This document shows positions 5,284 through 53,222 of a stretch of 64,000 nucleotides of DNA, piece after piece; the stretch's first letter is position 1; every line of letters begins with the position of its first letter. Origin of the DNA: Alloascoidea hylecoeti (Eukaryota). Made by a program: the position numbers and the translations under genes. The stretch spans positions 1-64,000 of the forward strand of contig BCKZ01000014.1 in NCBI GenBank assembly GCA_001600815.1, written 5' to 3'. The notes beneath the pieces were generated by a model, which searched no databases, had not been told where the DNA came from, and saw only the letters and a program-made list of their open reading frames with translations.

Positions 5284-6891
5284 CTAACCTAGTTTATCGT
5301 TATCATCACTAACTTCCACGGCCGTAATTGTGGTACCTGCTTTTGTCTCTTGATCCTGAGATTTATGAAGTTGGCGCTTTCTTTCCTCTCTTCTTTCATC
5401 TCTTATAGTGAATGCAACAGCAATAGTTGTCACAATTATACCAAACGAAAGTAAGCATGATGTGAATGTAAACCCAACATGATATTCAGGCAAATCGGTT
5501 GCATTCCAAGTGAAAATAGGAAGCCAAGCATTGGTAACATACGCTAAGACATTGGTTGCAGCTACTGTTAAGTTTCGTTTTTGATCATCATAAAAAAGTA
5601 ATCTGTTAACCCAACAAAATATCATAGGTTGTCCCATAGTACTAGGAATCGTGATTGCATAATAAGCAAACCAATGTAATCCTGTCGGAATGTTCCAAAT
5701 AGACAAGCAAATACAACCAAATAGTGTTATAAAAAAATACAGATAAACAAAAGGATATGTTCGACCATCGAAGTAATCTGCCAAATAAGAACAAACAAGA
5801 GCAAAAGCAATAGAAGCACCACTAGCCGAAGTTGGATACATGTTATAATGTTCTTGGGACATTCCTAAAGAATACTTCAACCAACCAGAAAATGTGGGTT
5901 GTCCGGGAGCATTACCAGAATTGTTGTAACAGAGAAATAATACTGGGAAAACCCAAATATGCCATGTATTAAGGATTGATTTAATTTTAGTCCAAGTATA
6001 TGGCTGACGTGTATTAAGCTGAGCTCCAATCCTTTTTCTCCTCTCAATTGCAATCTCTTTTTCTCTGGGGGTAAGATACCAAGCTGTGCATGTGCTCGGT
6101 GTATTTGGATCAACACACATTGTATAAATCCCAACTGGGTAAGATATCACAGCATCAAATACAAACAGCCATTTCCAAGGTGGATATGTAGTATTTGTTT
6201 TACCAATCCCATTTATAATCGCAGTAACTAGAAATCCAGTTACCATTTGTCCAGCAGTACCAGCACATGCAAAGAAAGCAGAACGCTTGGTAATTTCCTC
6301 TTTAGAATACCATGACCCAACAAGATATTCCATACCAGGAAAGAATCCACTCTCTGTAAGACCCACAAAAAATCTAATTGCATATAAGTGCTCTGCTTTG
6401 GTAACAGCCGTTGTACAAATTGTCAGGGTAGCCCAAATTAATTCTAACCCACCAAGATAATATCGAGCAGAGATTCGATGAAGAATTAGATTTGAAGGCA
6501 CTTGACCAATAATATAACCAACAGTCCATAACGTTTGCATATAGTTAAATTGGCTACCATTTAATTCTAAATCTTCCTTCATACCATTGATATAGGCACT
6601 ATTAATATTAGCTTGATTCAGATATTTAATAAAATAGCCCAACATTGAACTCGATAGTAAAAAGAAATCAAGTTTAGCCAAGAACCTTCGTTCTTCAGGT
6701 GATTTATCAACCGAATCCCATAAAAATCTCTTAATTTTAAAGCCCAATTTACTTCTTCTTAGCTTCTCCTCTTCAGATAAACTTGGTTCGCTACCATAAT
6801 CGTAATTCTCAAGGTATGTCTCATCGAAGGCAAGCTTAGATTCATCTTTAGAGTCATTATGATGTCCAATACCTAAATGAAGTTGAACCAT
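5284..6891 (-). CDS. MFS transporter, allantoate/anion:cation symporter family (pantothenate transporter Fen2/Liz1- or Seo1-like)
   Basis: 535 aa; ERRFLAKLDFFLLS, QANINSAYINGMKEDL, IRFFVGLTESGFFPG, GSWYSKEEITKR and WKWLF motifs; about 12 hydrophobic segments. Confidence 0.9.
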   Translation of the reverse strand: MVQLHLGIGHHNDSKDESKLAFDETYLENYDYGSEPSLSEEEKLRRSKLGFKIKRFLWDSVDKSPEERRFLAKLDFFLLSSSMLGYFIKYLNQANINSAYINGMKEDLELNGSQFNYMQTLWTVGYIIGQVPSNLILHRISARYYLGGLELIWATLTICTTAVTKAEHLYAIRFFVGLTESGFFPGMEYLVGSWYSKEEITKRSAFFACAGTAGQMVTGFLVTAIINGIGKTNTTYPPWKWLFVFDAVISYPVGIYTMCVDPNTPSTCTAWYLTPREKEIAIERRKRIGAQLNTRQPYTWTKIKSILNTWHIWVFPVLFLCYNNSGNAPGQPTFSGWLKYSLGMSQEHYNMYPTSASGASIAFALVCSYLADYFDGRTYPFVYLYFFITLFGCICLSIWNIPTGLHWFAYYAITIPSTMGQPMIFCWVNRLLFYDDQKRNLTVAATNVLAYVTNAWLPIFTWNATDLPEYHVGFTFTSCLLSFGIIVTTIAVAFTIRDERREERKRQLHKSQDQETKAGTTITAVEVSDDNDKLG

Positions 6892-8557
6892 CTTGAAAAC
6901 AATTTAGAGTTGTTTGAGTCGCAAATTCAATAAATAATCCCTAGTTAACAATAGAATAATGATCCGGATGTCTATCTTTTATATTAATTTTTTTCTTCTT
7001 TGAATAATATCCCTTGAAGATTATGAAAAAAGAATCTTTGGGTAATTAATATTTATAGTGTTCATGTGTCTCCCATTTTTTCAATTGCAATCTATATAAT
7101 ATTGATTATGTTTAGATAATAACTGTATGCAATTAAATTAAAGGTGTTCAGTTAAAATAACATATCCGCTTTATAATTGTTAATAAATGGTCTGTTTAAT
7201 TAGTAATGATATTCTAGAGAATAATATATGTAATTGTAATTAACATTTTAAAATGTTAGTTTAAGTTTAATCATAAATATAAGCCTTAGATATATAGATC
7301 TTCAAGAATATTTTTGTTTCTATGTTATCAATATATGCATATCTGTAGCTGTTAATTGTATTGATTTACCAATCAAGAGCCAAACGGATTCAATACTTTC
7401 CACAGGTGCAAATGCAGGGCCATTTTCGTACAATAGAATAATTCGATTCAAGCACAATTTTTATAACTTATATCATCTGCGTTTAGTGCCAAGAGTATTG
7501 CAACATATTATTCAACATTGCACAATATCCATACTACCCAACTTGTCCTTGAGCCAAAGATATAACAGAATCGAAATTATCATAAAATAGAATTTGAAGA
7601 TTATGAATCAGTTTATCTGTTATTTAATTTACTGGATAATTATTGACAATTATTTCAATTGAAAAGATGAAATTTTAATATTCACTTAGCTGAGTTTCTA
7701 TGTTGAATCATTGTTGATTCGTATAAATTAGAGCTTGATCGTTTTATTCTTTTTTAATCAATATTGAAGCATCAAGATAAGATTCCAACATGAAAGCATA
7801 AATGACGAGCTAATGTAATATACTAGATATGGAAGTACGGCCCTGTTCACCTTCTTGAGAAATCAAAATTGTAATGGGTATTTTGAATGTAAATTATATG
7901 TGTTGAAAAAGTATGCCTCCCAAAAAGTTAAAAATATACACTCTTTTAAACAAATTGTGTCTCTCTGCTTTTATTGAAAAATACAGGCCTTTTTGTATCG
8001 CGTCATAAATCTAAAAGAACTATTGCTGATAGCCTGATACATAAAGGATTCTTAATTTAGTACAGATTGAAACTTTGCAATTGCTTGAATAGTTGTTTGG
8101 GTGTTTCAGTTGAATTTTGACACTTCAATAGCCTTCTAACAAATGATAATATTGATAATATTTGGCACACTATGATTGTAATTCCAACAAGTTTAATCAC
8201 AAAGCTACTTCATCATGGCGCGAGTTTCTCCTTCAATTGAAAGTCATCCAGGGTAAAATAAAATATACATCCCCATTCAGATGTTTAAGAAGCACTTTGG
8301 TCAATTGGGTTTCTCACACAACTTTGCATTTTCGAACCTCGTGCTATAAAGCTAAAAATGGTGCTAATTTATAAACAGTAAAAAAGGATATTATTTGCTC
8401 TTTAAATGGGCGAAATCTTATTAGATTTTGGCCGGTTTATTGTCATGTGACCCTCCTTTAAACAATGAATGCTAGTCAACTAAGTAGAAAAAATATTCCT
8501 TTCCTTAGCCTGACTCTGTTTCCACTTGCAATATTGATGTATTTATAATCTTATAGA

Positions 8558-17592: not shown

Positions 17593-18939
17593 ATCTAGTG
17601 AAATGAGCTAATGCGATGTGTATATTGGTTAATTATGAATATTTAAGCATATGGAAAAATACAGTTTTCCCACTTGTTTTTACTATTTTCCAGAAATGAT
17701 TAGAATAATTTGAGATTAACTAGGCTAATGATATAAAACAACATTAATCCATTTCAATTCAAATTGGCCTATGAATTAAAAATTACTTAGAATAATACCA
17801 AAATTTTTTTTGATAATATTTAGGAAAATTGATGTTATCAATTTCACATACATTGAAAACCTAAGAACTATAGTTAAAAAGTCCGCGGTGCGATTTCCCC
17901 TAGGAATATGATAGCTATTATGATGTTAATGCTTTATCGTTGTTCTTCTCATAATTGTAATCCTGCTAGATGGAAAGTGCTAACGGTATTAAATTTTGGT
18001 CATTAATAAAGCTAATGTTATAAGATTATAGTCTAATTAAGTTATAGGACAACATTAAATAGTGATGAACGATGATGAAATGAACCTGAGCATAATTTTG
18101 GTAAATATTATGTTGGATATATTACACTCTTAGAACAGTTCACTAAAGTGTCGATTGGCTTTTTGGCGTAACTGGGAGAACAGGCACTTTGAACTTTAAC
18201 ATATTATATAAAAAAAAGAAAATCCAACGTAAAACCCCAATTGCAAAGTCTTGAAGATTCAATATTTTCTCCATCGAAATTAAAAGTAATATAATCTTCA
18301 TGATGACTGCATCCCCGAACTTAAATATATTACACGAGATCTCAACTTGGGTTGGTACACCTGTTGATGAAAGATATCCTGACGATTATGGATTTTATAA
18401 TATTTTCTATTATGGTGAAGATGGAACCTATAAATACAGATATGATGATGTGTTTAATCTTCCAGATATCAAATCAATGGCTCAATACATGAAAGGTTCC
18501 TGTTATACACTGTATGATGATGTCAGAATGCTGAACGTGTGATCACAGATTCAGGAAGAGAAGAAGTGGTAGCATTATTAAAATTGAATGATGCTTATGT
18601 TGAAAAAAAGAAATTCAAGGAAATTTACCCTGATACTTCAAGTGCCAAAGATAGAAAAGAAGAAAATCTAATATCAGGAAAAGCTAGTGTTCGTTGACAA
18701 ATTAGGAACTTTGAATGTACGTTCTTCTGAACAATCCGCTCGATCTATCTTATCTTCTTCTCCCAATTTATAGATTTGCGATAGAATGAACTGAAGTTAA
18801 TAGGTCACATTGATCTGGTAACATGTTTAAATAAATATTGACTCTTTTAAGAAATATATTAATTGTTAGTACTGTTGGGAGATAACCCGAGCATTGTTTT
18901 GAATGTGCTAAAAGCCAAGTAATTAATCATATAAGCTTA

Positions 18940-19060
18940 TACACTACTTTGCATAACTATCGACCACTTGTTGAGGTATTCACCCTTAGTTGAGAAACTA
19001 TTCGCCCTTAGTTGGAGTAACCATTAAACCACATGATGTAATAATAATTCGACCACTTAA
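18940..19060 (+). mobile_element. Tc1/mariner-like terminal repeat fragment with subterminal TATTCG(A/G/C)CC motifs
   Basis: TA-CACTACTTTGCATAACTATCGACCAC matches the reverse complement of 43541-43568 (TA-CAGTATTTTGCATAAATATCGACCAC) at 25 of 28 positions. Confidence 0.65.
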
Positions 19061-19504
19061 CCTTGTGTTGACCAATAACTATACTTGTTTTTATCACTAA
19101 AGATATTAGTGGAAGATAATTCGCTGTTCTATTTATTCTAGAGGGAACACCTGTTGGAAATACATATATATATATTGAAAGGAAGAACATTTTCTGAAGA
19201 AAAGGGTTAAATTTTTATTGGGTTAAGTTTTTTTTATATATACATGTACAATTTTGTACACCTTTTATAATACAATTTTACTTCTATATTAAACACACAA
19301 ATTAATATTATTATTATCGAGTCTCATTTATATTATCTAAGAGCTATACAATAAGTGTTGTATCGTTCATAAAGGAGCATAGGTTATACTGTTCTTTTAC
19401 AACGTCACAAATATGGGACCACCTTCTGAATTAAATATTCGGCCACCTCAAAGGTTCAAACACTTCTTAAATTAAATATTCGGTCACACCTTGGGGTGAG
19501 GAAA

Positions 19505-19848
19505 AGTTTACTCGGATATCCAAAATTTTCAACCACAAATTGCAAAGTCAACAAATGTAATTTATTGTAAATAGTATTACTAAAATCTACTTATAATAAT
19601 CTCTTTTCTGATAATAAAGAGTGAGCATTCGTCTACCTTATTTAGCTAAAAGCCCGCCAACTGTAAGCCCAATACCAACCGGCATTTTAATACACTCACT
19701 CCACAAAAGATTTATAGAAAAAAATATCGAACATCTACTATCAGAATAAGAGATTAAAAAGATTATAGGTGTAATACTATTTTCAATGATTTTTATTTGT
19801 TGTTGGATTTGCAATTCATGGTTGAAAGTTTTGATATCCGAGTTAACC
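19505..19848. mobile_element. MITE-like element with ~125-bp terminal inverted repeats
   Basis: ACTCGGATATCCAAAATTTTCAACCACAAATTGCAAA (~19510) pairs with TTTGCAATTCATGGTTGAAAGTTTTGATATCCGAGT (~19808-19843); AATAGTATTAC/GTAATACTATT and AATCTCTTTTCTGATA/TATCAGAATAAGAGATT also pair. Confidence 0.8.
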
Positions 19849-22800
19849 TCTTAATCCGAGTTCCATCTGTTGGTAGTGTTTCTAGATTTCAATTGATTAT
19901 AGCCTTGGGTATTCTGTGCTTCATATATTTGAGGTTAAAGTTTTGATTATTTTGAGAAGTTAGTGTATTCATTTAGCTACCTTAATATTACTGTTATTGA
20001 ATAAGTGTATCATGATCTGACAGGTAATTGTACGGTTATATTTTATTCAAACTTTATTTCTAATAGTAAACGCTTAAGATTTTGGATAAAATTAAACTTA
20101 ATAACATATCTGATACACAGTGAGGTCATTAATCCAAATTTAAATAAAAAAATGAATTTGATGCTTGCAAAATTCAATAACATGGTATTTATTATTCTCA
20201 GGTGCTGTTAAGTAATTTAGACAATTAATTCTATTGATTTGAAATAATTAATCATATAATCCGTCATTATTAATCCATCTTATCAAACAGTTATTAATTA
20301 AGTAAAATCAACAAGTGATAAATAGTAACCATCATGAGCGACAAGTTTGTTGAGACAATTTAGTTCAATCCAACTATGCAGAGCGATAACCTTCCCAAAA
20401 AACGTGTGGCATTTGATTCAAATCGAAGAACACATCTAGTCAATAGAGCCAAACTCGTTAATTCTTTTGAGACAAAGTCACCTAGATATCCAGGATAAAT
20501 CGTTATCTTCATCGGCGGTATCTTGATTATTCAGTATTGGAACACCATTATTTTTGATCCTGGTGATATTTTATAACTGTTAAAGTAATAATAGGTTAGC
20601 ATTCCACCCTAATACACGAATCACTTGGAATTGCAATTATTACATAAGATAAATTTTATCTATTTTCTATCTGACTTAGAACATTACATATATAAATTTC
20701 TTCTTTTTTTTCTATTCATAACCTACTTGAGCTCTCTCCAAATCTCATAACATGGCTGTTTATATTATTGTAGGTGGTTAAAGGTGGTATATTGATGTTG
20801 GTACTAGTTTTGTGGGATCAATGTATCATATAATATAAGCTTATTGTTGTTTAATGAAACTTAAGGACATTCACTAGAGAATTTCTTTTTCTTCGACTAA
20901 AGTAATTATAATATAAGAGAGATTTAAAGAAATTGGAGGACCAATATTAATAGACGCCCAGATTGAATCAAAAGCGGTCAGAATTAATCTCTCCAAAAAA
21001 TATCATTGGTTATAGTATTTGAGGATATGTCTGTGACTTTATGTGAGGTGAACGATGATTTCTTAACTTTCTCCTGTATTTTTCTGTAGTTTGGAGTTTA
21101 CAGATTTTCTATAACTTTAGCCATTTGCTAAATTATCCTTTCACTTATCATGAAGCTGGATCTTTTGACCCCATTTACTGGAAATCATCAACTTATTAAA
21201 ACCACATCCTATATGAGGAGATTGGGGATGTGATCCATTTTCATATTTATATTATTATTGTTTCTGTTTTACAAATTGAATCTTAAGTTTTTAATATTCA
21301 CCAATTGTGTCTTCCAAAATAGCTAATTCATTTCGAGATAATAATTTACAGTCATATCGCCTACAAAAATATCGATAAATCGCCAATGGTAAGAGAGCAA
21401 TTGATTACTGCTACTAGCTATAAATTTTGGTTAAGAACCATGTTAACATAATTAAATATATTTCAACAGCAATATTTGGCATTTCTAGAATCCAATCAAA
21501 GATAGTAGCTTTAAAGCTTCGTATTGGAAGCACATGTAGTACAATGTTCATGTAAATAAATATGAATTGCGATTGATTAACTGACGATCATTAGTCAAGA
21601 ATCAAGATGTGCTGTAGGCCTATAGCTGTTATATAGATTATATTGATTATGAAGAAAAAAACTGTAACTTATTCTTCTAATTTGATCATAATCGTGATTG
21701 ATGTTTATCTCTTATCTAAGGCTCAATAGTGAAATATTGACCATATGTTAATATATCAAACTTAAGCTTGTAATTGACGCTATATCCTTTTATAAATTAG
21801 AAATATTTGTTCTCCTATTATTCAGCTTCAGTGTAAATTTAGCAAATAGCATATGCATATGTAGTAGCATAGAAAAATAAAAGCAAGCATATTCAAACGG
21901 CTGTGAGTCTGTGAGGTATATAAGATAGGCTTATTATATTAATATTCCTCAATACACGTATGGATAATATCGCCGACTTTAACTGGTTTGATTCATATTA
22001 GGTAATTAGCGCTCTCTAATAGTCTCTAATAGTTATTCTCTATCAATCTTCTCTAGATTTTCTTAATCAATACACTATCTCTGTCAATTGCAATGTGTAC
22101 CTCACAGTTGATCTGATCCAGTAGACCAGATCATCAAAGTTGTCTATTCCCAATTGGTGCTGTGTAATAGTGTCAATGGCATCTCTATGCCCATTGCCCA
22201 CAATTCATATGTAGAGGTTCTTGCATACTGACATCTCTTAAGTTCCAGGTTTACTAAACTTAACCATATATCTGTTGATTCTGTTCTGTAGTTATAGCTA
22301 GCATAACTATCAACTACTCACATGTAACTGCAGGCGAAATGAGTAATTAATTATAATATTATAGAACTAGATCTCGTACATTTGAGTGCATGCATTAATA
22401 TTACTAATATTATAATTTCATATTCTATTTTATTCTATTGAGTGAATTTCTTTCATGTGAAAAAGTTCGTAAATGTTGCAATCCGTAATATTAATATATA
22501 TTTAAAGGTCATCAAGTATAGATATTATACACGTATAGACGAATGTTATGAATAAAATGTCTAAATAACTTGTTATCTTCAACTATAAAGATTCGATTAG
22601 CGCTAGTTCTACGATCAGAAATTCTAGCGGCACATGTTTGAACCATGAATTGGTCAGATTCTGGAAGATATTTCATTCTATAGATCTATAAGATCGAGTT
22701 ATAACTTACATACGTATACTACTATGTATTATGTAATTAAGTTCCCCTAAAATTGTTAATAATAGAATTCGATTATATAGGCCCTAAATATTCTCTACCT

Positions 22801-25461
22801 AAAACTAGATGTTAAGAATCTTATGATATAAGCTAACTATATGCGGAGCTACATAACCGTTTTGAGGTATAGCTGTTGTTATAGCCAATATACAGGGCTT
22901 ATATAGCATATATTATTAAAATTAACATATATAACTTGTTGCTAGATGGTAGATGCTATATTAACATATATAAGATCATGATGTTATACACAGCCTATCT
23001 TTTTAATTATGTATTAGCTTAACAATTTAAATTTTAACTGTATACTGAGAGCACCGAGAGCAAAAGCACATGTAAGAAAAAAAATCAATTACACCTATAG
23101 CTAGCTAGGCCCTAAATTATAACTTAACCTTACCTCATATATGCATCTATGAATATATTGTATAAAACAAGAATCGTTAGTTTCATGATCGGAGGTTTAT
23201 TTAGAACATTTATGTTAGTTATGAACTTATGATTGATGAAAAGATATTAATTGTTAGCTATAGGTTTAAGATCTAGATATTACTATCGCTATTCATATCA
23301 TTATCATGACAATTGTTTTAAGCTTCTAATTATAATTTAACGGAGTAAGTTTTTATATTATAAGGCCTAAAAAATTAATGTTATATAATTAAAATTATAA
23401 TGGAGATATTGGAAAATTATTGTTAGACTAATTACTTTATAAATATATAGAGCTATCGCTTTAATATACCGATTTCCAATTTGCAATAGTTTAAGGTTAT
23501 AATATAATATAAGCGAGTACGTTTGTAGGTTATTATAGAAACATATGGGCCTTCAACTGTTAGTTTTCGCCTTTCATCTCTTTAAGCAATAATTAGCTAT
23601 TATACTTATATCAAAAACAGTTACTGTTAGTTGTTGTTAAGAAATCTTATATACCGATTACATCGCGATCGAAAAGTCGATCCTAATATGTTAATAACAA
23701 CGTTCTGAAAATGGAAAGTGCAATGAATTTGAAGCTTTTTCCGGATCCCATTGTTAATAGGAAATTAGGAATGTTGTTGATAATAAGATTATTATCCAAG
23801 ATTTATAAACGATATATCTACATCTAGTTAACGTTATAGGTAACTCTAATCTATTATTATTATCTGTCTAACAGTTGTTATATGTCACGCCATTTAGAGA
23901 CTTCCATTAAATGTATAGAATATAAAATGGCGATACACGTCAAGATCACCCATTTATGTTGAATTAGAAGGTAATACCTGACGACCCTTTTGATTTCCCT
24001 TTGATAGAACATGACCACAAAACTATATATACTATAACTGTCACCATTCAGTTTAAAATTATCCTCAAAATCAAAACTATTCCAATGCTATCGATATCCT
24101 TATATGGAGTTTCTATTGTTGCATATTGGTGTATATACTATATTCATATGTCGCAATTTCTTCCTATTAATATTGACTCTGCAGTTACTGCATCAGTATA
24201 TTTGCATATGCATACGTACATAATATTAAATAATATTTTGTATCCTGGCCAATTGTAAATGTCTCAGCTCTTCTCATCCCATCACAAATTAGTGGTTGTT
24301 GCCGCAATTTTAAAGATTCAATACGATACGAAGAATAATTATAATTAAATAAAAATTAAAACGTTTTAATATTAATTAATTTGGATTGTGAATTTTGCAT
24401 GTTGTAAACTTCAATTTTTCCACACATGTAATTGCAATTAATTTGTATATAGGTTTTCCACACACTTAAGAATTACATTCCAAATTTAAAAGTTATTTCA
24501 AATATAACTTGCAATTGGATTACGCCCCCACCAGAACTACTACAGACATTGTAGAATTTCTTTTTGGATCTTCATCCAACAATTCGATCAGAATGGCTAC
24601 GTACAGAATCTACAGATAGTTACAACTTACCACCGATAATCGGCTCGACTGAAATTCGACTTACAATATATAAATTTAATGAAAATATTTAAATGGTTTG
24701 TAGTTGTCCCTTCTTGGTAATTAATGTTTTAGATATCCTCATATTATATAACTGGTTAATCAATTGCAATTGATCTCCTTATTAAATTTGTAATCGACCC
24801 CATTATTATTACTCTTTAACAATTGAAATGCATATGGTTAATTGGTTGTAACTCTGACCACGGAGTTATATCTTTAAAACAACTATTAGGTGATAGCCTC
24901 AATTAAGAAGAATACTTTTAATCACAATAATAATGAATTTAGCAACAGATGTACAGGTCCATTGCCTAGGGAATCAAGGGAATTATGAAGATGAAACCCC
25001 CAGGTCAAAGTAATGTAACGTACTTCTATAGTAAGCTCGTTTAACAAAATAGTGATAATTTTTAAATTTAAATATCATAATTAATATTTTGTTTATATTG
25101 ATGCAATTGCAGGCACGTTAACTATATGTCATAAAATATTAATTATAATATAATATTAAGGGCAATGCATCAATATTACATATCGGATCAAAATGGAATG
25201 GTTAAGAATTAAATTTTAAAATATCAACATTACAACCTAATATCTAATATATAATATTAATAAATACAATATTCAATCTGCAAATTCAAACTGCTTAGGC
25301 TTATTGGAGAATTAATTTTAACAGGGAACAAGGACAAGGCAATAATTGAAATTCATATATGAAACTGTAAGACTATATAAACTGTGCTTTCCCTCTAACA
25401 ATAATTAACTTATACCATCAAATTAATAACTTTCTCTTACTATTTTAACTATCTAAATAAT

Positions 25462-26850
25462 ATGAGTTTAACATCAACTACAACCGCTGTTGATAGTGGT
25501 AACAATATCAAACATATTCTAGCAGGTCAAAATTATAACAATATCGATATAAATGCCACTACGCCTAATATAAAATCTCAGACTATCAACGTCATGTCTA
25601 ATGATAATATTAAAACTTCACAATTCCAAGAGCACACAAAGGACTTCCAATCAAAAGATCATAATTCTGTGGAATTTGATCATGAATTGCTTGACGGAGG
25701 TGAATTTGAAGTTCCTGATTTTACAATAAAAGACATTTTATCTGCAATTCCAGCTGAATGTTACAATAGATCCACTTTTCGTTCACTTGGTTATGTTGCT
25801 CGTGATATTTCAGCATTAATCCTCTTTGGTTATCTAGCAATTTATCATCTACCCAAGATTCCTTATTTAGGCTTAAGAATAATCCTCTGGACTACATATG
25901 TTTTTATTCAAGGTTTATTTGCAACTGGACTTTGGGTTTTAGCCCATGAATGTGGTCATAATGCCTTTTCAGATTATCCTCTCCTAAATGATATAGTTGG
26001 ATGGTTTTTACATTCATCTCTTCTTGTTCCATATTTTTCTTGGAAATATAGTCATGCAAAGCATCATAAACACAATGGTTGTATGACAAAAGATATGGTT
26101 TTTGTCCCAAAGACAAGACAAGAATTTTTAAGAAGAAAACATGCCATTAAAATTAATGATGTGACTGAAGAAGCTCCACTTGCAACTCTCATCCATCTTT
26201 TTGCTCAACAATTCTTTGGATGGCATATTTACTTAGCTACAGATGTGACAAGTGGCGCTAAATATCCAGGTGTTTCAAAATGGAAAATAAATCATTTTCA
26301 TCCATCAGCTCCATTATTTAATAGAAGACAATATTGGGATATTGTTGTTTCTGATCTTGGAGTTTTAGTTCAAGGATTTTTAGTTTATTTAGGATTTCAA
26401 AAATTTGGTGCTCAAAATATGATGCTTCATTATATTCTTCCATGGACTACTGTTAATAATTGGCTTATATTTGTTACTTATCTACAACATACAGATGTTT
26501 CTGTTCCTCGTTATGAAACTTCAAAATGGACATTTGCTCTTGGTGCAAATTGTACAATTGATAGAGATTTTGGATTTATAGGGAAACATATTTTCCATGA
26601 TATTATTGAAACTCATGTTTTACATCATTTTGTTAGTAGAATTCCATTTTATCGTGGAAGAGTTGGAACTGAAGCAATCAAAAAAGTTATGGGAAAACAT
26701 TATAGATACAATCCTGAAAATATGTTTCAAAGTTTATACAAAACAGCAAGAAGTTGTCAATTTGTTGAAGGTACCGATGGTGTTATGTTATTTAGAAACG
26801 CAAATGGAATTGGTAGTGTTCCTCCTAAACCAGATCAAGATCAAGATTAA
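25462..26850 (+). CDS. Delta-12/omega-3 fatty acid desaturase (FAD2/FAD3 family)
   Basis: 462 aa; PDFTIKDILSAIP; three His boxes HECGH, HAKHH and HVLHH; TYLQHTD. Confidence 0.95.
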   Translation: MSLTSTTTAVDSGNNIKHILAGQNYNNIDINATTPNIKSQTINVMSNDNIKTSQFQEHTKDFQSKDHNSVEFDHELLDGGEFEVPDFTIKDILSAIPAECYNRSTFRSLGYVARDISALILFGYLAIYHLPKIPYLGLRIILWTTYVFIQGLFATGLWVLAHECGHNAFSDYPLLNDIVGWFLHSSLLVPYFSWKYSHAKHHKHNGCMTKDMVFVPKTRQEFLRRKHAIKINDVTEEAPLATLIHLFAQQFFGWHIYLATDVTSGAKYPGVSKWKINHFHPSAPLFNRRQYWDIVVSDLGVLVQGFLVYLGFQKFGAQNMMLHYILPWTTVNNWLIFVTYLQHTDVSVPRYETSKWTFALGANCTIDRDFGFIGKHIFHDIIETHVLHHFVSRIPFYRGRVGTEAIKKVMGKHYRYNPENMFQSLYKTARSCQFVEGTDGVMLFRNANGIGSVPPKPDQDQD

Positions 26851-28131: not shown

Positions 28132-29277
28132 TCACAATTCTCTAAATAAGAAATCTGATTCTGATTCTGTTACTTGCTCCGACCACTCAGTAGAAGAATC
28201 ATTAAATCCTGGTATATCCATAACTTTAACATTTTTAATTGTTGAAGCACGTTGCATAAATCGTCTTGCTTGTAAAGAGGCAATCTTATCACTCATTAAT
28301 GATATTGTTTCTTCGTATGATAGACCATTTTCCATGGCCACAAAAAAATCTGTGCTGAATGTGTCCACGGTACTAAACCATACAGAGGCATACAAAGTAA
28401 GCTTTAAATGATCAGGTACTGGTTTGTTAACATACTCAGCCATTTCAAATATAGTTTTGGCTCTAAATTTGAATGCTCTAAAAGTATCAACATCGATATT
28501 AGAAGCTAAAGGTTTCCCTGTTAGTTCAGCCAAGTATCCAGAAACACTAACCATGGTGGGACCAAATTCTTTCTTTATAATACTTATCATATTAGATATT
28601 GAATGACAAGAAGATACCGTTGAATTCATAAATTCTGGAATAGTTGAATAAATCTTGTATTTTAGACAGTTAAGTTTCATATGAACGGTACTATCATTGG
28701 CCTCTCCAGGGTAAACGGGTACTTTATCACCATCATAAATTACTGTAATAATTTTCTCCATTGAAAACCTTTTAATAATGTTATTGATTGACGCCTCCCA
28801 GGGAATAAAACTCAATTCGTCTTTGAGAACAGGAACAAATGATGCCTGAATAAGTTGTGAAATATAAGTCCTTTGGAGAAGAGTACTAATATCAGTATTT
28901 TTAGCTTCATCAGGATTAGCGACATGTTTTGAGGCCACATCTTCTATATCTTCCACTTCTTCCACTATATTTGATCCAGGAGTAATTCTACACATCGTGG
29001 GTACAGGCTTGCAATTTGATCCTCCCGTTATCTTCATAAGCTTTATTACCTGTGATTTTTTATTCTTAGATTTTTTTGATTCATCTGTTTTAGTAGTGGC
29101 TGTTTTTGATGTCTTTGCTGGCATACCAGTAAATGATTTTATATTAGATACATCCTTTTTGAGTTTCTTAACTTGATCTAGAAGATCACAATCATTATCG
29201 TTCATTTCTGCTCTGACATCTTCCAATTCCTCAAAGAGTTCATCCAATGCAACTTTTATAGAGGAGTTGTTGGACAT
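28132..29277 (-). CDS. Intact orphan ORF resembling Ty1/copia Gag capsid (UBN2-like), with no adjacent pol
   Basis: 381 aa uninterrupted. VPVLKDELSFIPWEASINNII, LKYKIYSTIP...SISNMISIIKKEFG, FRAFKFRAKTIFEMAEYVNKPVPD and LSYEETISLM follow the spacing of copia Gag motifs (pattern recognition only). Confidence 0.55.
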   Translation of the reverse strand: MSNNSSIKVALDELFEELEDVRAEMNDNDCDLLDQVKKLKKDVSNIKSFTGMPAKTSKTATTKTDESKKSKNKKSQVIKLMKITGGSNCKPVPTMCRITPGSNIVEEVEDIEDVASKHVANPDEAKNTDISTLLQRTYISQLIQASFVPVLKDELSFIPWEASINNIIKRFSMEKIITVIYDGDKVPVYPGEANDSTVHMKLNCLKYKIYSTIPEFMNSTVSSCHSISNMISIIKKEFGPTMVSVSGYLAELTGKPLASNIDVDTFRAFKFRAKTIFEMAEYVNKPVPDHLKLTLYASVWFSTVDTFSTDFFVAMENGLSYEETISLMSDKIASLQARRFMQRASTIKNVKVMDIPGFNDSSTEWSEQVTESESDFLFREL

Positions 29278-29631: not shown

Positions 29632-30233
29632 ATGACGATTTCACCAGTCTTGGAGGAGAGCAAATATAAGAATAAATCGAGTACTGCAGAAGAAAGAGCC
29701 CAACCGGATTATAACTCAGATGATGAATATTTTACAACAGAGTTAAATCTTAATCTTTCTTCCCTTAATTTAAATCCAGAAACCGATAATAGCGTTATAA
29801 ATGATACCAATAGTACCACTCAAAATCAAAATGGTCCTGTAAAAAAGATATCTAAAAAGCAACGAAAAGGTCAAAGTGAAGAAGATTACCTAATTCAAAA
29901 AGAGATATATAAACAAACTGGTCCAAAAATCACCTCATTAAATGTAAGTTTTATTTCTACTTTACATTTTGATTTCCCTTTTACTAATGAAAAAAACTCC
30001 TAAAGTGGTTATTTGAAAAAGAATATGATATGGAAAAATTACATATAAAAATGGAACGAGGAGATTTGAGAAATGCTGCAGAACGAGCTTTTTTCTTAAG
30101 AGATTATTCAACTTCTTTAAAATATACACAAATGGGTATTAATGCGTATTTTGGTAATAAAACCCATAAAAGAGATTTACAAGAACTTGAAAATATCAAA
30201 ATAGCCTGTGAAAAACAAATATATATTTCATGA
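29632..30233 (+). CDS. Hypothetical protein (~179 aa, 2 exons; intron 29944-30005)
   Basis: ATG 29632; GTAAGT...TACTAAT...AAG intron joins ORF 29620..30003 in frame to WLFEKEYD + ORF 30030..30233. Confidence 0.75.
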
Positions 30234-45682: not shown

Positions 45683-46072
45683 TCACAACCGAGAACCCAG
45701 ACCATTAGCAAACACCTTCTCAAAAATACCAGAACCTGCTTTCTCGGCTGCTTTTACACTAATCAATTTCCCTCCTTCAACAGTAAGTAAAGACTTTCCT
45801 ACTTGCATTGCCCCACTCTTCAGAATTCCTTTTTTCACAACATTTTTGGCAACTGACTTCGCAGCTTTGATGCCTACCAATTTCCCTCCTTTAGCTATCG
45901 CGATGGAGCTTTCAACAGCACCATCAAGAAAAGCTACTCCCGGGCAGAATATATACTCTAACCCCGTACCAATCGCCATTCCGACTCCTGCAACAGCAGA
46001 AGCTTCATCTTCTGGCATTATAACGCTCGAAATAAAAGAGCCAGCACATGATAAAAGAAATCAAAGAATCAC
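45683..46072 (-). pseudogene. Glycine-zipper/amphipathic small-protein family, copy 1 (5'-damaged)
   Basis: Aligned to copies 2-4, the start is GTG (46072) and codon 4 is TGA (46063-46061) instead of Gly. The downstream ORF 45683..46018 is intact. Confidence 0.75.
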
Positions 46073-47420
46073 ATTTAAATCTATGTGACGCTTCTATAAG
46101 TTGGAATCCTTTCTTCTTATATATAAGTATATTATCCAGACTATAATCATCGGTCATTAATGGGGCTTCATTGATTAAAAAATCATATGCAAGTATTAAC
46201 AAAAGTGCACGAAATATTTCTAACAGTCAATTTAAACTTAACCGAACATGTATATTTAAACACAAAAACAAATACTTTTAATTTAAAATTCAAAAATTCA
46301 TCAATCGCTTCGTATTTAGTATACATATCCAGGTATTGATTCTCGAGTTTCCATATTAAGTAACTATAAAGTTGATTACAATTAAAGATGGAACAATTTT
46401 TTCGCATTAATATTGGTTCGGCTATAACTGATCAAGAATATTGTGGATCATAAACCGTTAATTACGGGCTTTCTTATAATGTAATTATCTGCATATGCAT
46501 GGACTGGTCAATATTTGGAATTAATTCAAAATGAAGCACAATTCTTATAATTATGAACTGTTGGGAATATTTAACTTTTCGTTAGAATAAGTTTATAGCT
46601 CGACCTTTGATGAAATAGAATTTTTTAAAAGATATTTCTCATAACGTATAAAACAGATTTCATTGTATCGCTACGGTTAACGATACAATCGTTACATTTT
46701 AATACTTCATCTTATCCTTTCCCACTACGTCTTCTAATTCTATTCCATAATGGTACGATAACGGGTTCAAATGGTTATATACTGAATTCAATTTCATTCT
46801 TTAAATTTAAGTTAATTAACTGAATTATAACTATCTCATTAATAACGTTAACATAATTGGTATGTGCTTAAATGATTATAGGTCCCCAATTTCAAGAAAT
46901 TTAATTATACAAATATAATGTTAAAAATAGAAATATATATATTCAAATACAGAAAAGCTGTAGCATAAATATGCGTATTACATTATAAGGTAAATAGAAT
47001 TGAGATAGCTTAGTTAACAGCTAGCTACACCGGATCTATATTTATAATCACAAAACGTTGAAGAGAAATATATGAATAATAATCATATAACTGTATAGTA
47101 TTTTTCTTTCCCATCTTCCTATCCTCGATTTCATTTTCATTGTGTCTGGCAAAGAATCAAAAGTATTAATTAACATATTATAATTAGAAGTAATCTTTTA
47201 CCAACTCCTTATGAATTGCTTTCACTAGTACCCTATTAGTTTTCCTCCTTCAACAATGTATAAAAAAAGTCATAGTTGCTTTCAATTCTTTTTCTAATGT
47301 TTATAGCCTTAATTATGTTCCGCTGATAACCGTGGAATTTCCATTATCAACCTTTTCTGCGTCATCATCGACATTTCCTTTCTTATTATCAATATATTCT
47401 TTCTTTTTCTTATTTCCTTT

Positions 47421-48155
47421 CTAATTATTGTGTTCTTCATCATTATTAACATGTTCTTCATCATCATCATGATTTTCTTTCTTATTCTCATAGCCATTCT
47501 GATTTCTATGTTGTTCATCATTCTCAACATGTTCTGTGTTATTTTCATGTTCTGTGCTATTCCCATGTGCTTTCTTATTCCTATGTTTTTCATCATAATC
47601 CACATTTTCTTCCTTATTGTCATGCCCTTTTTTATTCATACGTTCTGTTTTATTCCTATTTTCTTTCTTCTTGAAATGCTTTTTCCTGATCCAATCTTCT
47701 TTCTTACTCTCATGTACATCATCAATATCATCATTATCAATATCTTCTAACTGTGATAATACCATAGCACCAGTAGTACTAGTATTAGTAATTGCCTTTT
47801 TAATTAAAGCAGTACCTGCTTTCGCTGTTGCTTTTTTTGTTCCAACTAATTTCACCTCTTCGTTAGTCAGTAAAGACTTTTTAACTTTTTTTGAACCTTT
47901 TTTAATCCCCTTTTTCACAACAGTTTTAGCAACTGACTTTGCAGATTTGCCTATCAATTTCCCTCCTTGTGCTATTGCTACAGTTCCCCCAGCAGCAAGT
48001 GCACCATCAAGAAGAGCCGCTGGTGGACAGATTATAAGCTCCAGCGCCGTACCAATCACCATTCCAACCCCTGCAACAACAATAGCATTCTTCTCTGGCA
48101 AAATCTTGTTTGCAACATAAGATCCAGCACATGAAAAAACAATCCCAAGCACCAT
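47421..48155 (-). CDS. Glycine-zipper/amphipathic small-protein family, copy 2 (244 aa, long charged N/E/H/K tail)
   Basis: MVLGIVFSCAGSYV...AGVGMVIGTALELIICP...AQGGKLIG core, clearly paralogous to the neighbouring copies. Confidence 0.8.
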   Translation of the reverse strand: MVLGIVFSCAGSYVANKILPEKNAIVVAGVGMVIGTALELIICPPAALLDGALAAGGTVAIAQGGKLIGKSAKSVAKTVVKKGIKKGSKKVKKSLLTNEEVKLVGTKKATAKAGTALIKKAITNTSTTGAMVLSQLEDIDNDDIDDVHESKKEDWIRKKHFKKKENRNKTERMNKKGHDNKEENVDYDEKHRNKKAHGNSTEHENNTEHVENDEQHRNQNGYENKKENHDDDEEHVNNDEEHNN

Positions 48156-49975
48156 TTTTGTATAATGTTTTTATATTTCGGAATATAATATTTATATTTT
48201 ATTTGGTACTAAGACAAAGAGTAAATACCTTATTTAATTGGGTCAGAGGAGTGATGATTTATATCAAGAAGGTGATGAGCAAATTTAAATGTACATGTAT
48301 TATAAAATGGATCTCTTTAAAATATTTTCACTGCGTAGATACAACTCCCGCTAGGATTAAATACCATTATTGAACTTGTTGCTACCATATTGATTCTTGA
48401 ACCTGTTTCTACCATGTTTGGGCTTATTCACTCAACCCGATTAACCTCTCTTAGATTGCATGGTTTCATTTGACTATTAAGTATCTCATCTAAACTTTGT
48501 AAGTTAAACGAACAAGATAAAGTCGGATTGGAAAATAGAAAGTAATCAATCATAAAATAGAATATTTAGCCCATATACATTCTAATATTTACTATTATAG
48601 TACTATTATTACCGATATATTATGGGTAATCATAAGAATACAAGTATGTAGCACAACTCTGTGACACAACTCTAAAAAATCAAACTCTAAAAAAATTTAC
48701 AGTAACCAATGAGAACGAATTAATTTGAAGAAGAAGAAGAAAAATTAATAAACGTGGGTAACCCAACGGGTACCATCGGGTAGTATTGGTAGCTATCAAT
48801 ATCTGGATAGCTAAATGATATCTCTTCATGGGCGCTTGACAAGCGGTAAGCATCAAAATGGCTGGTATGATACAATGAGATGCAAATAAATAGAGGATAA
48901 GAACAATATTTTGGGGTATTATTTGTGAGTAAAAAACCGAGATTAAGCATCATAGGTCGTTGGGTTTGGGGACATAAGGAATATTAATGGGAAGAAGAAA
49001 AAAGGATTTCTCTACTAGAAAGGATCGTTTTAAGTGAATCGATAAGATTGAAAACGGAAACTTTAAATACTTGAAATTCTTGAATATCCCTTAATATCCT
49101 AGAGAAAAAGATTTTCCTTTATGAATTATTTCTCGCAAACTATCTTTTTAACTGGTAATTAATCTCCACTATAATTTTAAGGAACCTAGCTATATTCTGA
49201 TCCCACTTTATCCAGGGCGTGTGTGCAGGCAATGTTCTATCAATAATAACTGATTATTTTCATTTTGTATTTTATTATTTCATGTTTTTCATTTGGAGGG
49301 TTTAAATGGAACTGAATCTTCATCACTACAATTTCTTTTATCAATGCTCAATGCTCAATGCTAGCTTTATCATGACGATCTGCATATGCATGTCAATATT
49401 TAGAATTTATTTAAAATAACTTAATATATATCCCAACTAACCATAAATATAGCTACACAATTCTTATATTTATCAAAATTTCAGAATATAGTCCGATCTT
49501 TGACGAGATAAAATTCTTTACTTTTTTGAGTAAAAATTGAGGTTTAGCATTGTCACATTTTAAAACTTCAAATGCTTTACCGCGGTTCCAATTCCATTCC
49601 ATAAGGCAGGTAGCGATAACAGGTTCATATGATTCATTGCAAAATTTAATTACACTCGATAAGTAGTTTATAGCAAGCTTGAACGGCTCTCTTTGTTAAC
49701 TACTCCGATTGTTATGACTCGACAAGATTGAATATTGTTTAATGGCTACTGGATCTAAATTGCAAAAAATGTAATACCACTGTATTTATATTTATAATTA
49801 TATATATGTTAAAAATAGGAATAAAATGTTAGATATAAAATTAAAAAATGGAGTATTCAAATACAAGAAAACTATAACCATAGATTGTATATAAAGGACA
49901 TAGTTACGATAATAAAAGGCTGAAGAGATATATTGTCGACATTATTTATTAATCTTAAATATAGATTCATAAGAT

Positions 49976-50597
49976 CTAGACATTTTCTTTATCAGTATTA
50001 TGATTTTTATGATCAACATTTTCTCCATCATCATCACTTTCTTCATCACCTTTTTCATTTTCTTCTTCTTTTTGATTCTCTTTATTTTTGTCTTCAATAT
50101 TATTTACAATTTTCCCTAAGTTTGCTGCAGCCACGGAACCAGTGGTATTTGTAACCACATTTTTTAGTAAAGCAGTACCTGCTTTCTCAGCAACCTTGAT
50201 ACCAATTAATTTTCCACCTTCTACAGTAAGNNNNNNNNNNNNNNNNNNNNNNNNNNNNNNNNNNNNNNNNNNNNNNNNNNNNNNNNNNNNNNNNNNNNNN
50301 NNNNNNNNNNNNNNNNNNNNNNNNNNNNNNNNNNNNNNNNNNNNNNNNNNNNNNNNNNNNNNNNNNNNNNNNNNNNNNNNNNNNNNNNNNNNNNNNNNNN
50401 NNNNNNNNNNNNNNNNNNNNNNNNNNNNNNCCAACAGCAACTGCGCCATCAAGAATAACTGCCGCTGGACAAAAAATATATTCTAAAGCGGTACCAATTA
50501 CCATCCCAACACCCGCAACAGCAACAACATTCTGTTCCGGCATTATAGCACCCGCAATAAAGGAACCGGCGGTTGACAAAATAAATCCAAGTACCAT
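49976..50597 (-). CDS. Glycine-zipper/amphipathic small-protein family, copy 3 (spans a 200-N assembly gap; acidic tail)
   Basis: Sequence on both sides of the gap is nearly identical to copy 4. The corresponding segment in copy 4 is 124 nt, so the apparent frame change is a gap-size artefact. Confidence 0.75.
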
Positions 50598-52014
50598 TTT
50601 TATAAATATATTTCTGAATATAATATGCTGCTTTTTATAATCTTAATGTGATCCAAAACAATGAGAACAAGAAACGTTAATTTTCTATGTTACCATTCTA
50701 GTTAGTTATGCAACTCATATATATCTACTATTGGAGTAATAAATTTAGAGCAAAGAGTAAATACCTTATTAGATTCTTGGGTTGAGCTGATGAAGAAATG
50801 TAGTATAAGTTGGAAACCTCTTTATATATATAGTATACCATAATCCAATTTATAATCATCGGCAATTGATGGCTTCATTAAAACTCTGTGGCCAATGGCT
50901 ACACCGACTATCACCCTTGGACGATGATTAAAAATTATATACATGGACCTATATTCAATTAACTGATAGGAGTTTCCGGATTGAGCAACAAAGATGATAA
51001 TTGAGAATAAAGCTGAAACAATTTTTTCGCGATTCATTGGCTATAACTAACTGATTAAGAATACTCTGGTTTCCGGACTTTGAACTCTGGATTAAATACC
51101 CTAATTGCATGATTTTATATTTACGCATATATTTGTAGGTGTTTGAATTTAAATATAGATAAACCAATTTGTTTATTATTATTATACTCTTTCATCCAGA
51201 CGACTGAAGAGGCCATTAGATCTTCAGAGTTTCAACCTTTACCTTATGTTGCTCTTGTGCCTCTCTCCTGAGTTTAACATTTTGAAAGCCCTGTACCATA
51301 AAGTAATTGAAGCTCCAGTAGAAGTTCATCATTATCTAATACAGACATCTTTTGATATATAAGCCTATATGATTACTTTTTATTTTTCTGTAAGTTATTA
51401 ATAATATAATAACTCCAATTCTATTGAGTCCCGATATTTGTTTGAAATATTAACAAACATAGGAGAATATGAGTATTAATAATGAGATATTCTATCCTGC
51501 AATATGTCTGAATGATTCCTCTTAATTTGGGTGAGATAAGCCATTAATCAAGTTAAGTCGTAGAATCGAATTCGATATAACTGTGACATATATTATTTAT
51601 CTGACCTAATTGCTTTACCAAACCACGACCCTAAAATCTCCAAATTCAATAAAATTGAGTGGTTAAATTTAAAATAATCAAAATATATGATATACGGCAT
51701 CTTATTAACCAATCTTTGCTTTGCTCATGTTCTTGATCATATTCAGTTTATTGTAACATTCTGCATATGCATGATCAATATTAGGAATTAAGGGAGGAGT
51801 GTATGGGAAGTAAACCAGAAAAGATAATTTGCCCACAACCACGAAATTAAAATTAGTATTGGCCGAAATTTAGTCAACGTCTAGATAAAGTGTTTTATAT
51901 TTGGAATAAAAGTTTTAAGTTAAATTAGTAATTAATTGACATCAGTTCGTCGTAGCGTGTAACTCTAACAACAAGATCTTATAAGTAATTTATAACCACC
52001 TGGTGATAGATTCC

Positions 52015-52443
52015 TTAAGATCTATTTTTTATTCTTCCTAAATTTGCCGCGACCACAGAACCAGTGGTATTTGTAACCACATTTTTTAGTAAAGCAGTAC
52101 CTGCTTTCTCAGCAACCTTGATACCAATTAATTTTCCACCTTCTACAGTAAGTAAAGACTTCCCAACTTGAATCACTCCGTTTCTAATAACTGCTTGCTG
52201 AACAACGTTTTTTGCAACCGATTGTGCCGATTTGATGCCAACCAACTTCCCACCTTGTGCTATCGCTACTGAGCTCCCAACAGCAACTGCGCCATCAAGA
52301 ATAACTGCCGCTGGACAAAAAATATATTCTAAAGCGGTACCAATTACCATCCCAACACCCGCAACAGCAACNACATTCTGTTCCGGCATTATAGCACCCG
52401 CAATAAAGGAACCGGCGGTTGACAAAATAAATCCAAGTACCAT
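52015..52443 (-). CDS. Glycine-zipper/amphipathic small-protein family, copy 4 (142 aa, no tail)
   Basis: Intact ORF MVLGFILSTAGSFIAGAIMP...NLGRIKNRS. Confidence 0.8.
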   Translation of the reverse strand: MVLGFILSTAGSFIAGAIMPEQNXVAVAGVGMVIGTALEYIFCPAAVILDGAVAVGSSVAIAQGGKLVGIKSAQSVAKNVVQQAVIRNGVIQVGKSLLTVEGGKLIGIKVAEKAGTALLKNVVTNTTGSVVAANLGRIKNRS

Positions 52444-53222
52444 TTTTATGAATATGTTTCTGAATATAATATGCTGCTTTTTATAATTTTAAATCAATGA
52501 GAACAAGAAGCGCTAATTTCCTATGTTGCCATTCTAGTTGGTTATTTAATTCATATGGGTAATCCGAATAATGCAATGAGTAAATACCTAATTAGATTTT
52601 CGGCTTGAGCTGATGAAGAAGTGTATAGCGTAGTTGGATACCACTCTCTATAGTTGTATATCGAAGGAAATTCTTGTGTTTTTACTAGCTTAAGAAGTGA
52701 AAATATATGTAGTATTGAGAACTATGTGTGCTAGTCACGTGGTATTCTTTATCTAGCTAATTGGTTCACCAGACAACGACTATAATCCGGAGTAATACAA
52801 TTAAATAGTTGAATTTGAAATAATCAAAATACCAAATGTAGATCTAGATAAATTAATCTTTGCTTCCATTTGCTCATGTTCATATTATTGATATGCATAT
52901 ATATATTTAGTTTATCGTAATATTCAACATATGCATTATCAATACTAGGAACTATCTTATCGAATGCATTATTACATATTTGCTCATTTAAACTAAGTGC
53001 ACAATCAACCATTACAGTTTTACTTCTCTAGTAATTGATAGATATCGACATCGAAATAAAATATATCATAATTTTAGATTTTAGAATATACTTTGATGAG
53101 ATCGAAATAAACTTTTAATCTAAAGAATATACAATAATAATTTATAATTCCAATGTCATTTTCCACCATAATTATGAGCTTATATAATATAAGGCTTATA
53201 TAATTATAAGCACCTAAATGTA

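What the first reader, a model, noticed from the sequence alone, without database searches (positions are those of the whole stretch)
28132..29277. Intact stand-alone copia-type Gag-like gene: possible domesticated capsid or retrotransposon restriction factor
Seen: a 381-aa uninterrupted ORF in a region where other TE sequence is heavily decayed, with an N-terminal acidic coiled-coil-like segment, no zinc knuckle, no downstream protease/integrase/RT and no obvious LTR pair. Inference: residue pattern matches the Ty1/copia Gag (UBN2) capsid. Established: truncated Ty1 Gag (p22) restricts retrotransposition in Saccharomyces, and Gag domestication is known in other eukaryotes.
Basis: inference. 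Interest (0 to 1): 0.7.

Follow-up and report, generated by a model that had tools for sequence, protein, structure and literature searches.

The report
Tamed copia capsid gene in yeast
An intact, single-copy gene in an AT-rich yeast descends from the capsid (shell) gene of a copia-type jumping gene, and its second half is reused in three other host-like genes, so the yeast has probably kept a transposon shell protein for its own use, though what for is untested.

Summary
The 381-codon ORF is real, single-copy and lies between host genes, with no LTR or pol found. Pfam shows no Gag, but two tests support a Ty1/copia capsid. Residues 144-297 align with this genome's own copia Gags above all 194 controls. 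An AlphaFold model of residues 241-345, built without Gag rows, retrieves only retroelement capsids in its first 19 rows, Copia (Z 9.6) and Drt2 (Z 9.0) first. New here: this capsid C-terminal domain is shared with three ~520-aa genes, fused there to an unidentified domain and under purifying selection (dN/dS ~0.22); broken kin also exist. Drt2-type restriction is unlikely: the gene keeps both capsid domains and is 13-20% identical to the five Gag families tested, against 91.5% for Drt2 and its target. Best reading: an old co-opted capsid acting as a self-assembling scaffold. No orthologue, expression or direct selection test was available for the gene itself, so a relic is not excluded. The scan noted other solo Gag-like genes elsewhere in this genome, but not this family.

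The parts
28132..29277 (-). Intact 381-codon Gag-derived gene (coiled coil - linker - CA-NTD - CA-CTD - acidic tail)
29134..29259 (-). Acidic coiled-coil-like N-terminus, aa ~7-48 (origin unresolved)
   Evidence: Sequence pattern; weak Pfam rows E 0.015-0.03. Not significantly like the N-termini of the paralogues (107-1528 of 2000 shuffles reach the score) or of one genomic Gag family (208 of 1000).
28873..29133 (-). Lys/Thr-rich then acidic linker, aa ~49-135, probably disordered
   Evidence: Sequence composition; inference
28558..28860 (-). [quoted passage not shown]
   Evidence: hhalign against 5 genomic Gags, colinear over aa 144-297; 0 of 194 controls reach the score; pairwise z 2.9-4.5 against 5 of 5 Gags. 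Fold not modelled with confidence.
28258..28557 (-). [quoted passage not shown]
   Evidence: AF2 pLDDT 76; Foldseek rows 1-8 are Ty1/Ty1'/p22/Drt2 CA-CTD; VIA rows 1-19 are retroelement capsids; paralogues
28132..28257 (-). Acidic C-terminal tail, aa 341-381, where Gags carry the nucleocapsid; no zinc knuckle
   Evidence: a short stretch resembles a downstream frame of a broken C6 relative (7 of 3000 shuffles)
25462..26850 (+). Convergent neighbour: fatty-acid desaturase (host gene)
   Evidence: PF00487 E 1e-19
29632..30233 (+). Divergent neighbour 354 bp from the ATG: probably a two-exon host gene, not identified
   Evidence: ORFs; splice-like signals read; no convincing Pfam match

Best explanation
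The ORF is an old Ty1/copia gag that lost LTRs, nucleocapsid, protease and pol and was kept as a host gene. It retains both capsid domains behind a coiled coil. It most likely works by capsid-type self-association (CA-CTD dimers, then larger capsid-like assemblies or a scaffold), with the coiled coil and acidic tail free to bind host partners, as Arc, PNMA and PEG10 do, rather than by poisoning today's retrotransposons. Shown here: ORF, single copy, no element context, CA-CTD fold, CA-NTD sequence likeness, a family sharing the CA-CTD, and purifying selection on that domain among three paralogues. Inferred: that this gene itself is expressed and selected, that it oligomerises, and that its job is scaffolding.
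For: Fold: the model was built from the query plus 3 paralogue domains, no templates, no Gag rows (A4; pLDDT 76, pTM 0.65). Against 48,161 chains, rows 1-19 are all retroelement capsids: Copia 8vvw Z 9.6, rmsd 3.0, 96 aligned; Drt2 9rxy Z 9.0, rmsd 2.6, 88 aligned; first non-capsid Z 5.5. Foldseek rows 1-8 are Ty1-family CA-CTD, probability 0.90-0.98, falling to 0.28 at row 9. Sequence: hhalign score 29.2 against 5 genomic Gags; 0 of 90 shuffles, 0 of 60 local shuffles and 0 of 44 natural protein windows reach it (maximum 22.5). Those Gags' profile in turn ranks Ty1 p22, Ty1' CA and Drt2 first in the PDB (E 0.008-0.2). Retention: no DNA copy or element remnant; 4.9% of single-base changes would make a stop, so the frame survives 10% neutral change with P 0.004. 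Family: C3a and C3b against C11 give CA-CTD dN/dS 0.23 and 0.22 at dS ~1.4 (C3a-C11: 38 of 60 synonymous sites differ, 62 of 240 non-synonymous). Query and paralogues form a clade apart from the 5 Gags (99/99).
Against: No orthologue in any library, so synteny and dN/dS could not be measured for this gene; against its paralogues synonymous sites are near saturation (pS 0.65-0.71). Codon usage is not clearly host-like: -0.018, against host -0.025 to 0.086 and TE ORFs -0.079 to -0.016; the paralogues fall in the TE range. Broken relatives 83-87% alike to each other exist on C6 (two) and C11, so the lineage also leaves decaying copies. No Foldseek hit reaches E<=0.001 and Z 9-10 is middling for helical bundles. 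An HMM of 6 genomic Gag ORFs gave only 6.3 bits (8 of 2000 shuffles reach it). The CTD alone is not significantly like any of 5 genomic Gags in sequence (95-966 of 1000 shuffles; hhalign probability 3%). The tree carries a long-branch warning.
Confidence: 0.58

Rival explanations
1. Inert relic: a gag-only remnant of a copia family now extinct or unassembled in this genome, still open because it is young or lucky, with no host function.
For: Related broken copies on C6 (two, 86.5% alike over 1.2 kb) and a fragment beside a decayed copia element on C11; codon usage at the TE/host boundary; many RT hits sit at contig ends, so a parent element could be missing from the assembly; no orthologue found.
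Against: A young insertion should leave LTR or pol DNA or a close copy; none was found. The broken C6 copies are only distant kin of the query (29 of 3000 shuffles). The frame decays quickly without selection. The closest relatives are intact and under purifying selection.
Confidence: 0.2
2. Drt2/p22-type restriction factor: the protein enters the capsid lattice of a cognate copia element through its CA-CTD and blocks particle assembly.
For: The CA-CTD fold matches p22 and Drt2 best among yeast structures; the genome holds many copia elements (50 RVT_2 matches among 60 candidates scored). The CA-CTD-only heads of the C3/C11 paralogues resemble the p18/Drt2 layout more than the query does.
Against: Restriction needs a matched Dimer-1 surface: Drt2m is 91.5% identical to its target and barely restricts Ty1c, whose Gag is 78.9% identical to that of Ty1' (PMC13709905 section 5; PMC12530519 passages). 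The query is 13-20% identical to the 5 Gag families aligned. p18 poisons because it lacks the CA-NTD, which the query keeps. It could still have restricted a now-extinct family.
Confidence: 0.15
3. Not Gag-derived: an orphan helical host protein whose five-helix bundle converges on the capsid fold.
For: No Pfam, PHROGs or PDB sequence hit to Gag; ESM Atlas TYA and Retrotran_gag_2 rows are under 0.9 (0.85 and 0.83).
Against: Two different regions give two different kinds of evidence in the right order: NTD by sequence, CTD by fold. A true genomic Gag followed by zinc knuckle and protease (L088) also has no Gag Pfam hit, so the Pfam blank says little.
Confidence: 0.05

Closest known systems
Drt2 and Ty1 p22/p18 of Saccharomyces cerevisiae (PMC10951436; PMC12530519; PMC13709905; PDB 9rxy, 7nlh)
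   Same: Yeast host locus derived from Ty1/copia GAG; CA-CTD fold (Z 9.0 to 9rxy).
   Different: Drt2 is CA-CTD only, sits in a recognisable relic with LTR fragments and tRNAs and is 91.5% identical to its target. This gene has CA-NTD plus CTD plus a coiled coil, no relic context, and at most 20% identity to the Gags tested.
Co-opted gag genes Crtg12/Crtg13 (copia-derived, filamentous fungi) and the fused Crtg10/Crtg14 (PMC8321522)
   Same: Single-copy gag without pol kept by a fungus; fusions of co-opted gag to other domains are known.
   Different: Crtg genes are defined by synteny across families plus selection, neither testable here. 'Saccharomycotina' occurs 0 times in that paper's main text. 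No sequence link was tested.
Arc/dArc, PNMA2, PEG10, MOAP1 (domesticated Ty3/gypsy capsids of animals)
   Same: Retained capsid domains (Z 7.0-8.5); Arc also has an N-terminal coiled coil (PMC10516033 passage).
   Different: Those are gypsy-derived and animal; here the best matches are copia-type. Capsid assembly is shown for several of them and untested here.
SCAN domain (mammalian; Gag-derived module, Crtg7)
   Same: Analogue for the C3/C11 paralogues: a capsid C-terminal domain reused as a module at the front of a larger protein (SCAN as CA-CTD homologue: reference titles seen).
   Different: Different ancestry (gypsy) and partner domain (zinc fingers, recalled); the yeast partner domain is unidentified; no SCAN structure was among the 50 rows shown.

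Membership tests
Ty1/copia Gag capsid (CA) derivative | CA-CTD helical fold | tested here: met
   (rows 1-19 capsids; Copia and Ty1 family first; E-values not significant, Z 9.6)
Ty1/copia Gag capsid (CA) derivative | CA-NTD upstream of the CTD, colinear with copia Gag | tested here: met
   By sequence only: 0 of 194 controls; z 2.9-4.5 against 5 of 5 Gags; fold not modelled
Ty1/copia Gag capsid (CA) derivative | Match to Pfam Retrotran_gag_2 (UBN2) or TYA | tested here: inconclusive
   No hit, but 1 of 3 true genomic Gags scanned had none either and the other 2 were below the cut-off
Active or full-length Ty1/copia element | LTR pair and pol (PR-IN-RT-RH) downstream of gag | tested here: not met
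Active or full-length Ty1/copia element | Nucleocapsid zinc knuckle as in this genome's copia Gags | tested here: not met
   Absent; present in 5 of 6 Gag ORFs. That Ty1 itself lacks one is recalled, so absence alone does not prove domestication.
Co-opted gag gene (Crtg criteria) | Conserved synteny across species | not testable with these tools
   No relatives held for G000; no homologues
Co-opted gag gene (Crtg criteria) | Purifying selection | tested here: inconclusive
   Met among the paralogues (0.22-0.23); saturated for the query
Co-opted gag gene (Crtg criteria) | Expression | not testable with these tools
   No RNA holder listed
Drt2/p22-type restriction factor | CA-CTD without CA-NTD | tested here: not met
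   CA-NTD-like region present; an internal start giving a CTD-only form was not tested
Drt2/p22-type restriction factor | Near-identity to a resident target Gag (matched Dimer-1) | tested here: not met
   13-20% to 5 families; no close Gag in own-genome searches; the assembly may lack elements
Drt2/p22-type restriction factor | Inhibits retromobility | not testable with these tools
   Bench assay needed

The most novel reading that the evidence does not exclude
This yeast runs a home-made capsid system from one tamed copia lineage. The C14 gene supplies full capsid subunits. The three CA-CTD fusion proteins (C3 tandem pair, C11) dock into or cap that assembly through the shared CA-CTD and bring an unidentified ~240-aa domain as cargo, a copia-derived counterpart of the SCAN module. 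The CA-CTD is homogenised between the tandem pair (98% identical, 0 synonymous differences in 100 codons) while their C-terminal domains diverge (66%), as expected if the docking surface must stay matched.
Probability: 0.12. Interest if true: 0.85.

Novelty: new member of a known kind. Interest (0 to 1): 0.54.

Why it matters
In the papers I saw, gag co-option in yeasts rests on Drt2, a young CTD-only restriction factor; three older events are described in other fungi. A full two-domain copia capsid kept without a target, plus a selected family that reuses its CA-CTD as a module, would show that yeasts also took the Arc/SCAN route of capsid reuse. It gives four concrete proteins for testing self-assembly against restriction. 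The 2026 review notes that control mechanisms have not been studied in other budding yeasts.

Tried and rejected
Library searches for homologues of the query: only itself among 1,981 candidates. In 1.84 billion representatives only itself and P0002, a 2,326-aa repeat protein rejected as spurious. A profile of query plus 5 Gags returned one protein, a copy of a genomic Gag. JGI metagenome scan with the family alignment: 593 pattern matches, 0 confirmed. The single-sequence AlphaFold model of aa 121-381 had pLDDT 37; its fold search gave no capsid among 50 rows, best Z 7.2, uninformative. The BFVD search with the good model gave nothing at E<=0.001. Homodimer prediction of the CA-CTD: no answer (0.09, mark 0.32), used neither for nor against. 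Expression: no RNA holder listed; the one RNA run laid does not cover the ORF. Run X5 covers two pieces of the ORF at depth 2, too thin to use. [quoted passage not shown] Homology of the N-terminal coiled coils and tails between query and C3/C11 was not significant. The C6 ORF does not match the genomic Gag profile (E 0.14). The ARAGORN 'tRNA-Pyl' at 6867-6938 overlaps the start of a transporter ORF and has no Rfam support; rejected. Earlier scan notes gave no sequence match to the query, C3a, C11 or C6. Literature searches for this family; none listed describes it, and supplements were not read.

Full report
Observation. The host is an AT-rich, yeast-like ascomycete by gene content (inference; 24.8 Mb, 136 contigs). 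The gene sits tail-to-tail with a fatty-acid desaturase and head-to-head, 354 bp apart, with an unidentified gene, followed by Rpp20/POP7 and EMC4. A TATA-like TATATAA lies about 130 bp upstream (29410-29404, read; consensus only). The 2.8-kb region matches nothing else in the genome and has no LTR-sized repeat. Nineteen Gag/Pol ORFs of this genome find nothing between 25 and 32 kb, and 107 TE-containing loci give at best 36.5-bit hits there (top 10 rows shown). Repeat relics do exist at 18.1-19.4 kb, so the 'decayed TE region' is near but not around the gene. Contigs from two public runs carry the intact ORF, one with a single replacement; both are flagged as possible sources of this DNA.

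Is it Gag? Library searches are blank: no Gag family in Pfam, no homologue among 5.8 billion or 1.84 billion proteins, no PDB sequence hit. The Atlas lists TYA at 0.85 and Retrotran_gag_2 at 0.83, leads only. The Pfam blank is weak, because a true genomic Gag followed by knuckle and protease also lacks a Gag hit. I therefore collected the genome's own copia Gags and aligned one from each of five families as I grouped them (A3); a sixth, more divergent family was left out and gave E 5.4. The A3 profile ranks Ty1 p22, Ty1' CA and Drt2 first in the PDB (6 of 8 rows). Query residues 144-297 align colinearly to A3 (score 29.9, probability 26%, E 7.5e-4). Run locally the score was 29.2, and none of 90 shuffles, 60 local shuffles or 44 natural windows reached it. 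Pairwise, aa 130-245 match all five Gags (z 2.9-4.5), while aa 241-345 match none. A plain HMM test was weaker: 8 of 2000 shuffles and 1 of 2000 local shuffles reached the score, though the ORF ranked first of 470 window frames.

The second half was tested by fold. Residues 257-335 match three long ORFs elsewhere in the genome (E 2e-5 and 1e-4; reciprocal 6e-6 and 7e-4; 0 of 2000 shuffles each). An alignment of just these four domains (A4), without Gag rows or templates, folded at pLDDT 76 into five helices. Foldseek put Ty1, Ty1', p22 and Drt2 CA-CTDs in rows 1-8 (probability 0.90-0.98, TM 0.58-0.64, E 0.26-0.85; none at E<=0.001). The Foldseek-independent search of 48,161 chains gave retroelement capsids in rows 1-19, led by Drosophila Copia (Z 9.6) and Drt2 (Z 9.0), with the first non-capsid at Z 5.5. 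Z 9-10 alone could be a common helical arrangement; the unbroken run of capsids, and the NTD sequence signal directly upstream, make convergence unlikely. I put copia-Gag origin at about 0.93.

The family. The three relatives are a tandem pair at G000:C3:1128.7-1132.5 kb (531 and 515 aa from the ATG used) and a gene at C11:694-696 kb (521 aa). Each is one open frame: short coiled-coil-like head, CA-CTD without CA-NTD, acidic linker, then a ~240-aa domain that occurs only in these three places and that no library identified. They lie among host-like ORFs, have no Gag/Pol match beside them apart from short relics, and share no flanks. Between C3 and C11 the CA-CTD has dN/dS 0.22-0.23 and the C-terminal domain 0.28-0.32 at dS 1.3-1.8; linkers are 0.48-0.88 (NG86, near saturation). 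Within the tandem pair the CA-CTD is 98% identical with no synonymous difference while the C-terminal domain is 66% identical, which suggests recent gene conversion (inference). Query and paralogues group apart from the five Gags (99/99, long-branch warning). Two more distant relatives on C6 match the C11 domain (0 of 2000 shuffles) and, weakly, the query (29 of 3000; tail 7 of 3000). They are 86.5% alike to each other; one keeps a 252-codon frame followed by further short frames, the other is broken inside it, and a third fragment lies beside a decayed copia element on C11. The lineage has thus left both kept and decaying copies.

How it most likely works. With both capsid domains and no knuckle, protease or pol found, the protein cannot serve an element of its own. 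The frame is fragile (169 of 3429 single-base changes give a stop; P of survival 0.06 at 5% and 0.004 at 10% neutral change), and every other trace of the element is gone, so selection is the simplest reason it is open. Capsid domains self-associate through the CA-CTD (PMC12530519, passages), so I propose oligomerisation into a scaffold or capsid-like particle, with coiled coil and acidic tail as contact surfaces (0.58). This is inference; no binding result supports or opposes it. Restriction of the Drt2 kind needs a CTD without NTD and a matched dimer surface (PMC13709905, section 5 and passages). The query keeps its NTD and is 13-20% identical to the five resident families, so I give restriction 0.15, mostly as a past role against an extinct family. 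An inert relic keeps 0.2, because broken kin exist, codon usage is borderline, and neither orthologues nor RNA were available.

Comparison and novelty. Closest are Drt2/p22 (PMC10951436: abstract and section 5), the fungal Crtg12-14 genes (PMC8321522: passages and section 5), Arc/PNMA/PEG10 by fold and, for the fusions, SCAN (PMC10516033: passages and reference titles). It passes the capsid tests, fails the tests for an active element and for a Drt2-type factor, and could not be tested on the Crtg criteria. Three literature searches (listings only apart from the five papers named) showed no description of this family. Earlier scan notes report several other solo Gag-like genes in this genome (unchecked AI notes, not counted as support), which makes a lone capsid gene less singular here; none matched this family by sequence. 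Verdict: a new member of a known kind, co-opted gag, with an unusual selected CA-CTD fusion family attached; interest 0.54.

Noticed in passing
G000:C3:1128750-1132500 (L002, L003, L005) and G000:C11:694146-695700 (L049): Three intact ~520-aa genes with a capsid C-terminal domain fused to an unidentified ~240-aa domain, under purifying selection; the tandem pair is homogenised over the capsid part only. They may merit their own follow-up.
   Followed up: partly
G000:C6:503.6-504.8 kb (L134, L138), C6:640.7-641.9 kb (L133, L139), C11:246.8-247.0 kb (L043:1261-1511): Three copies, 83-87% alike, of a more distant relative; one keeps a 252-codon frame, both C6 copies stop at the same place, and no pol match was found within the 10 kb fetched.
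   Followed up: partly
window 18111-18201: A ~91-bp TG...CA repeat with about 40 listed copies at 89-98% identity (lower bound), found upstream of copia Gags and ~300 bp upstream of, and antisense to, the C3b gene; no Rfam match. Possibly a very short solo LTR or LTR fragment.
   Followed up: partly
window 45683-52625: Four tandem paralogues of a small Gly/Ala/Val-rich hydrophobic protein on the minus strand, some with charged tails; the two scanned have no Pfam match.
   Followed up: no
window 17600-25400: Gene-poor 7.8-kb stretch holding repeats; 18204-18795 has an 81% copy at C14:68.5-69.1 kb and 19506-19847 holds an inverted repeat.
   Followed up: no
L105:1261-1869 (G000:C1:293.8-294.4 kb): A 203-codon frame with a coiled-coil-like start and a copia CA-NTD 40% identical to one resident family, ending early in the CTD; another solo Gag candidate.
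   Followed up: no
window 25462-26850: The desaturase has at least two diverged paralogues in the same runs.
   Followed up: no
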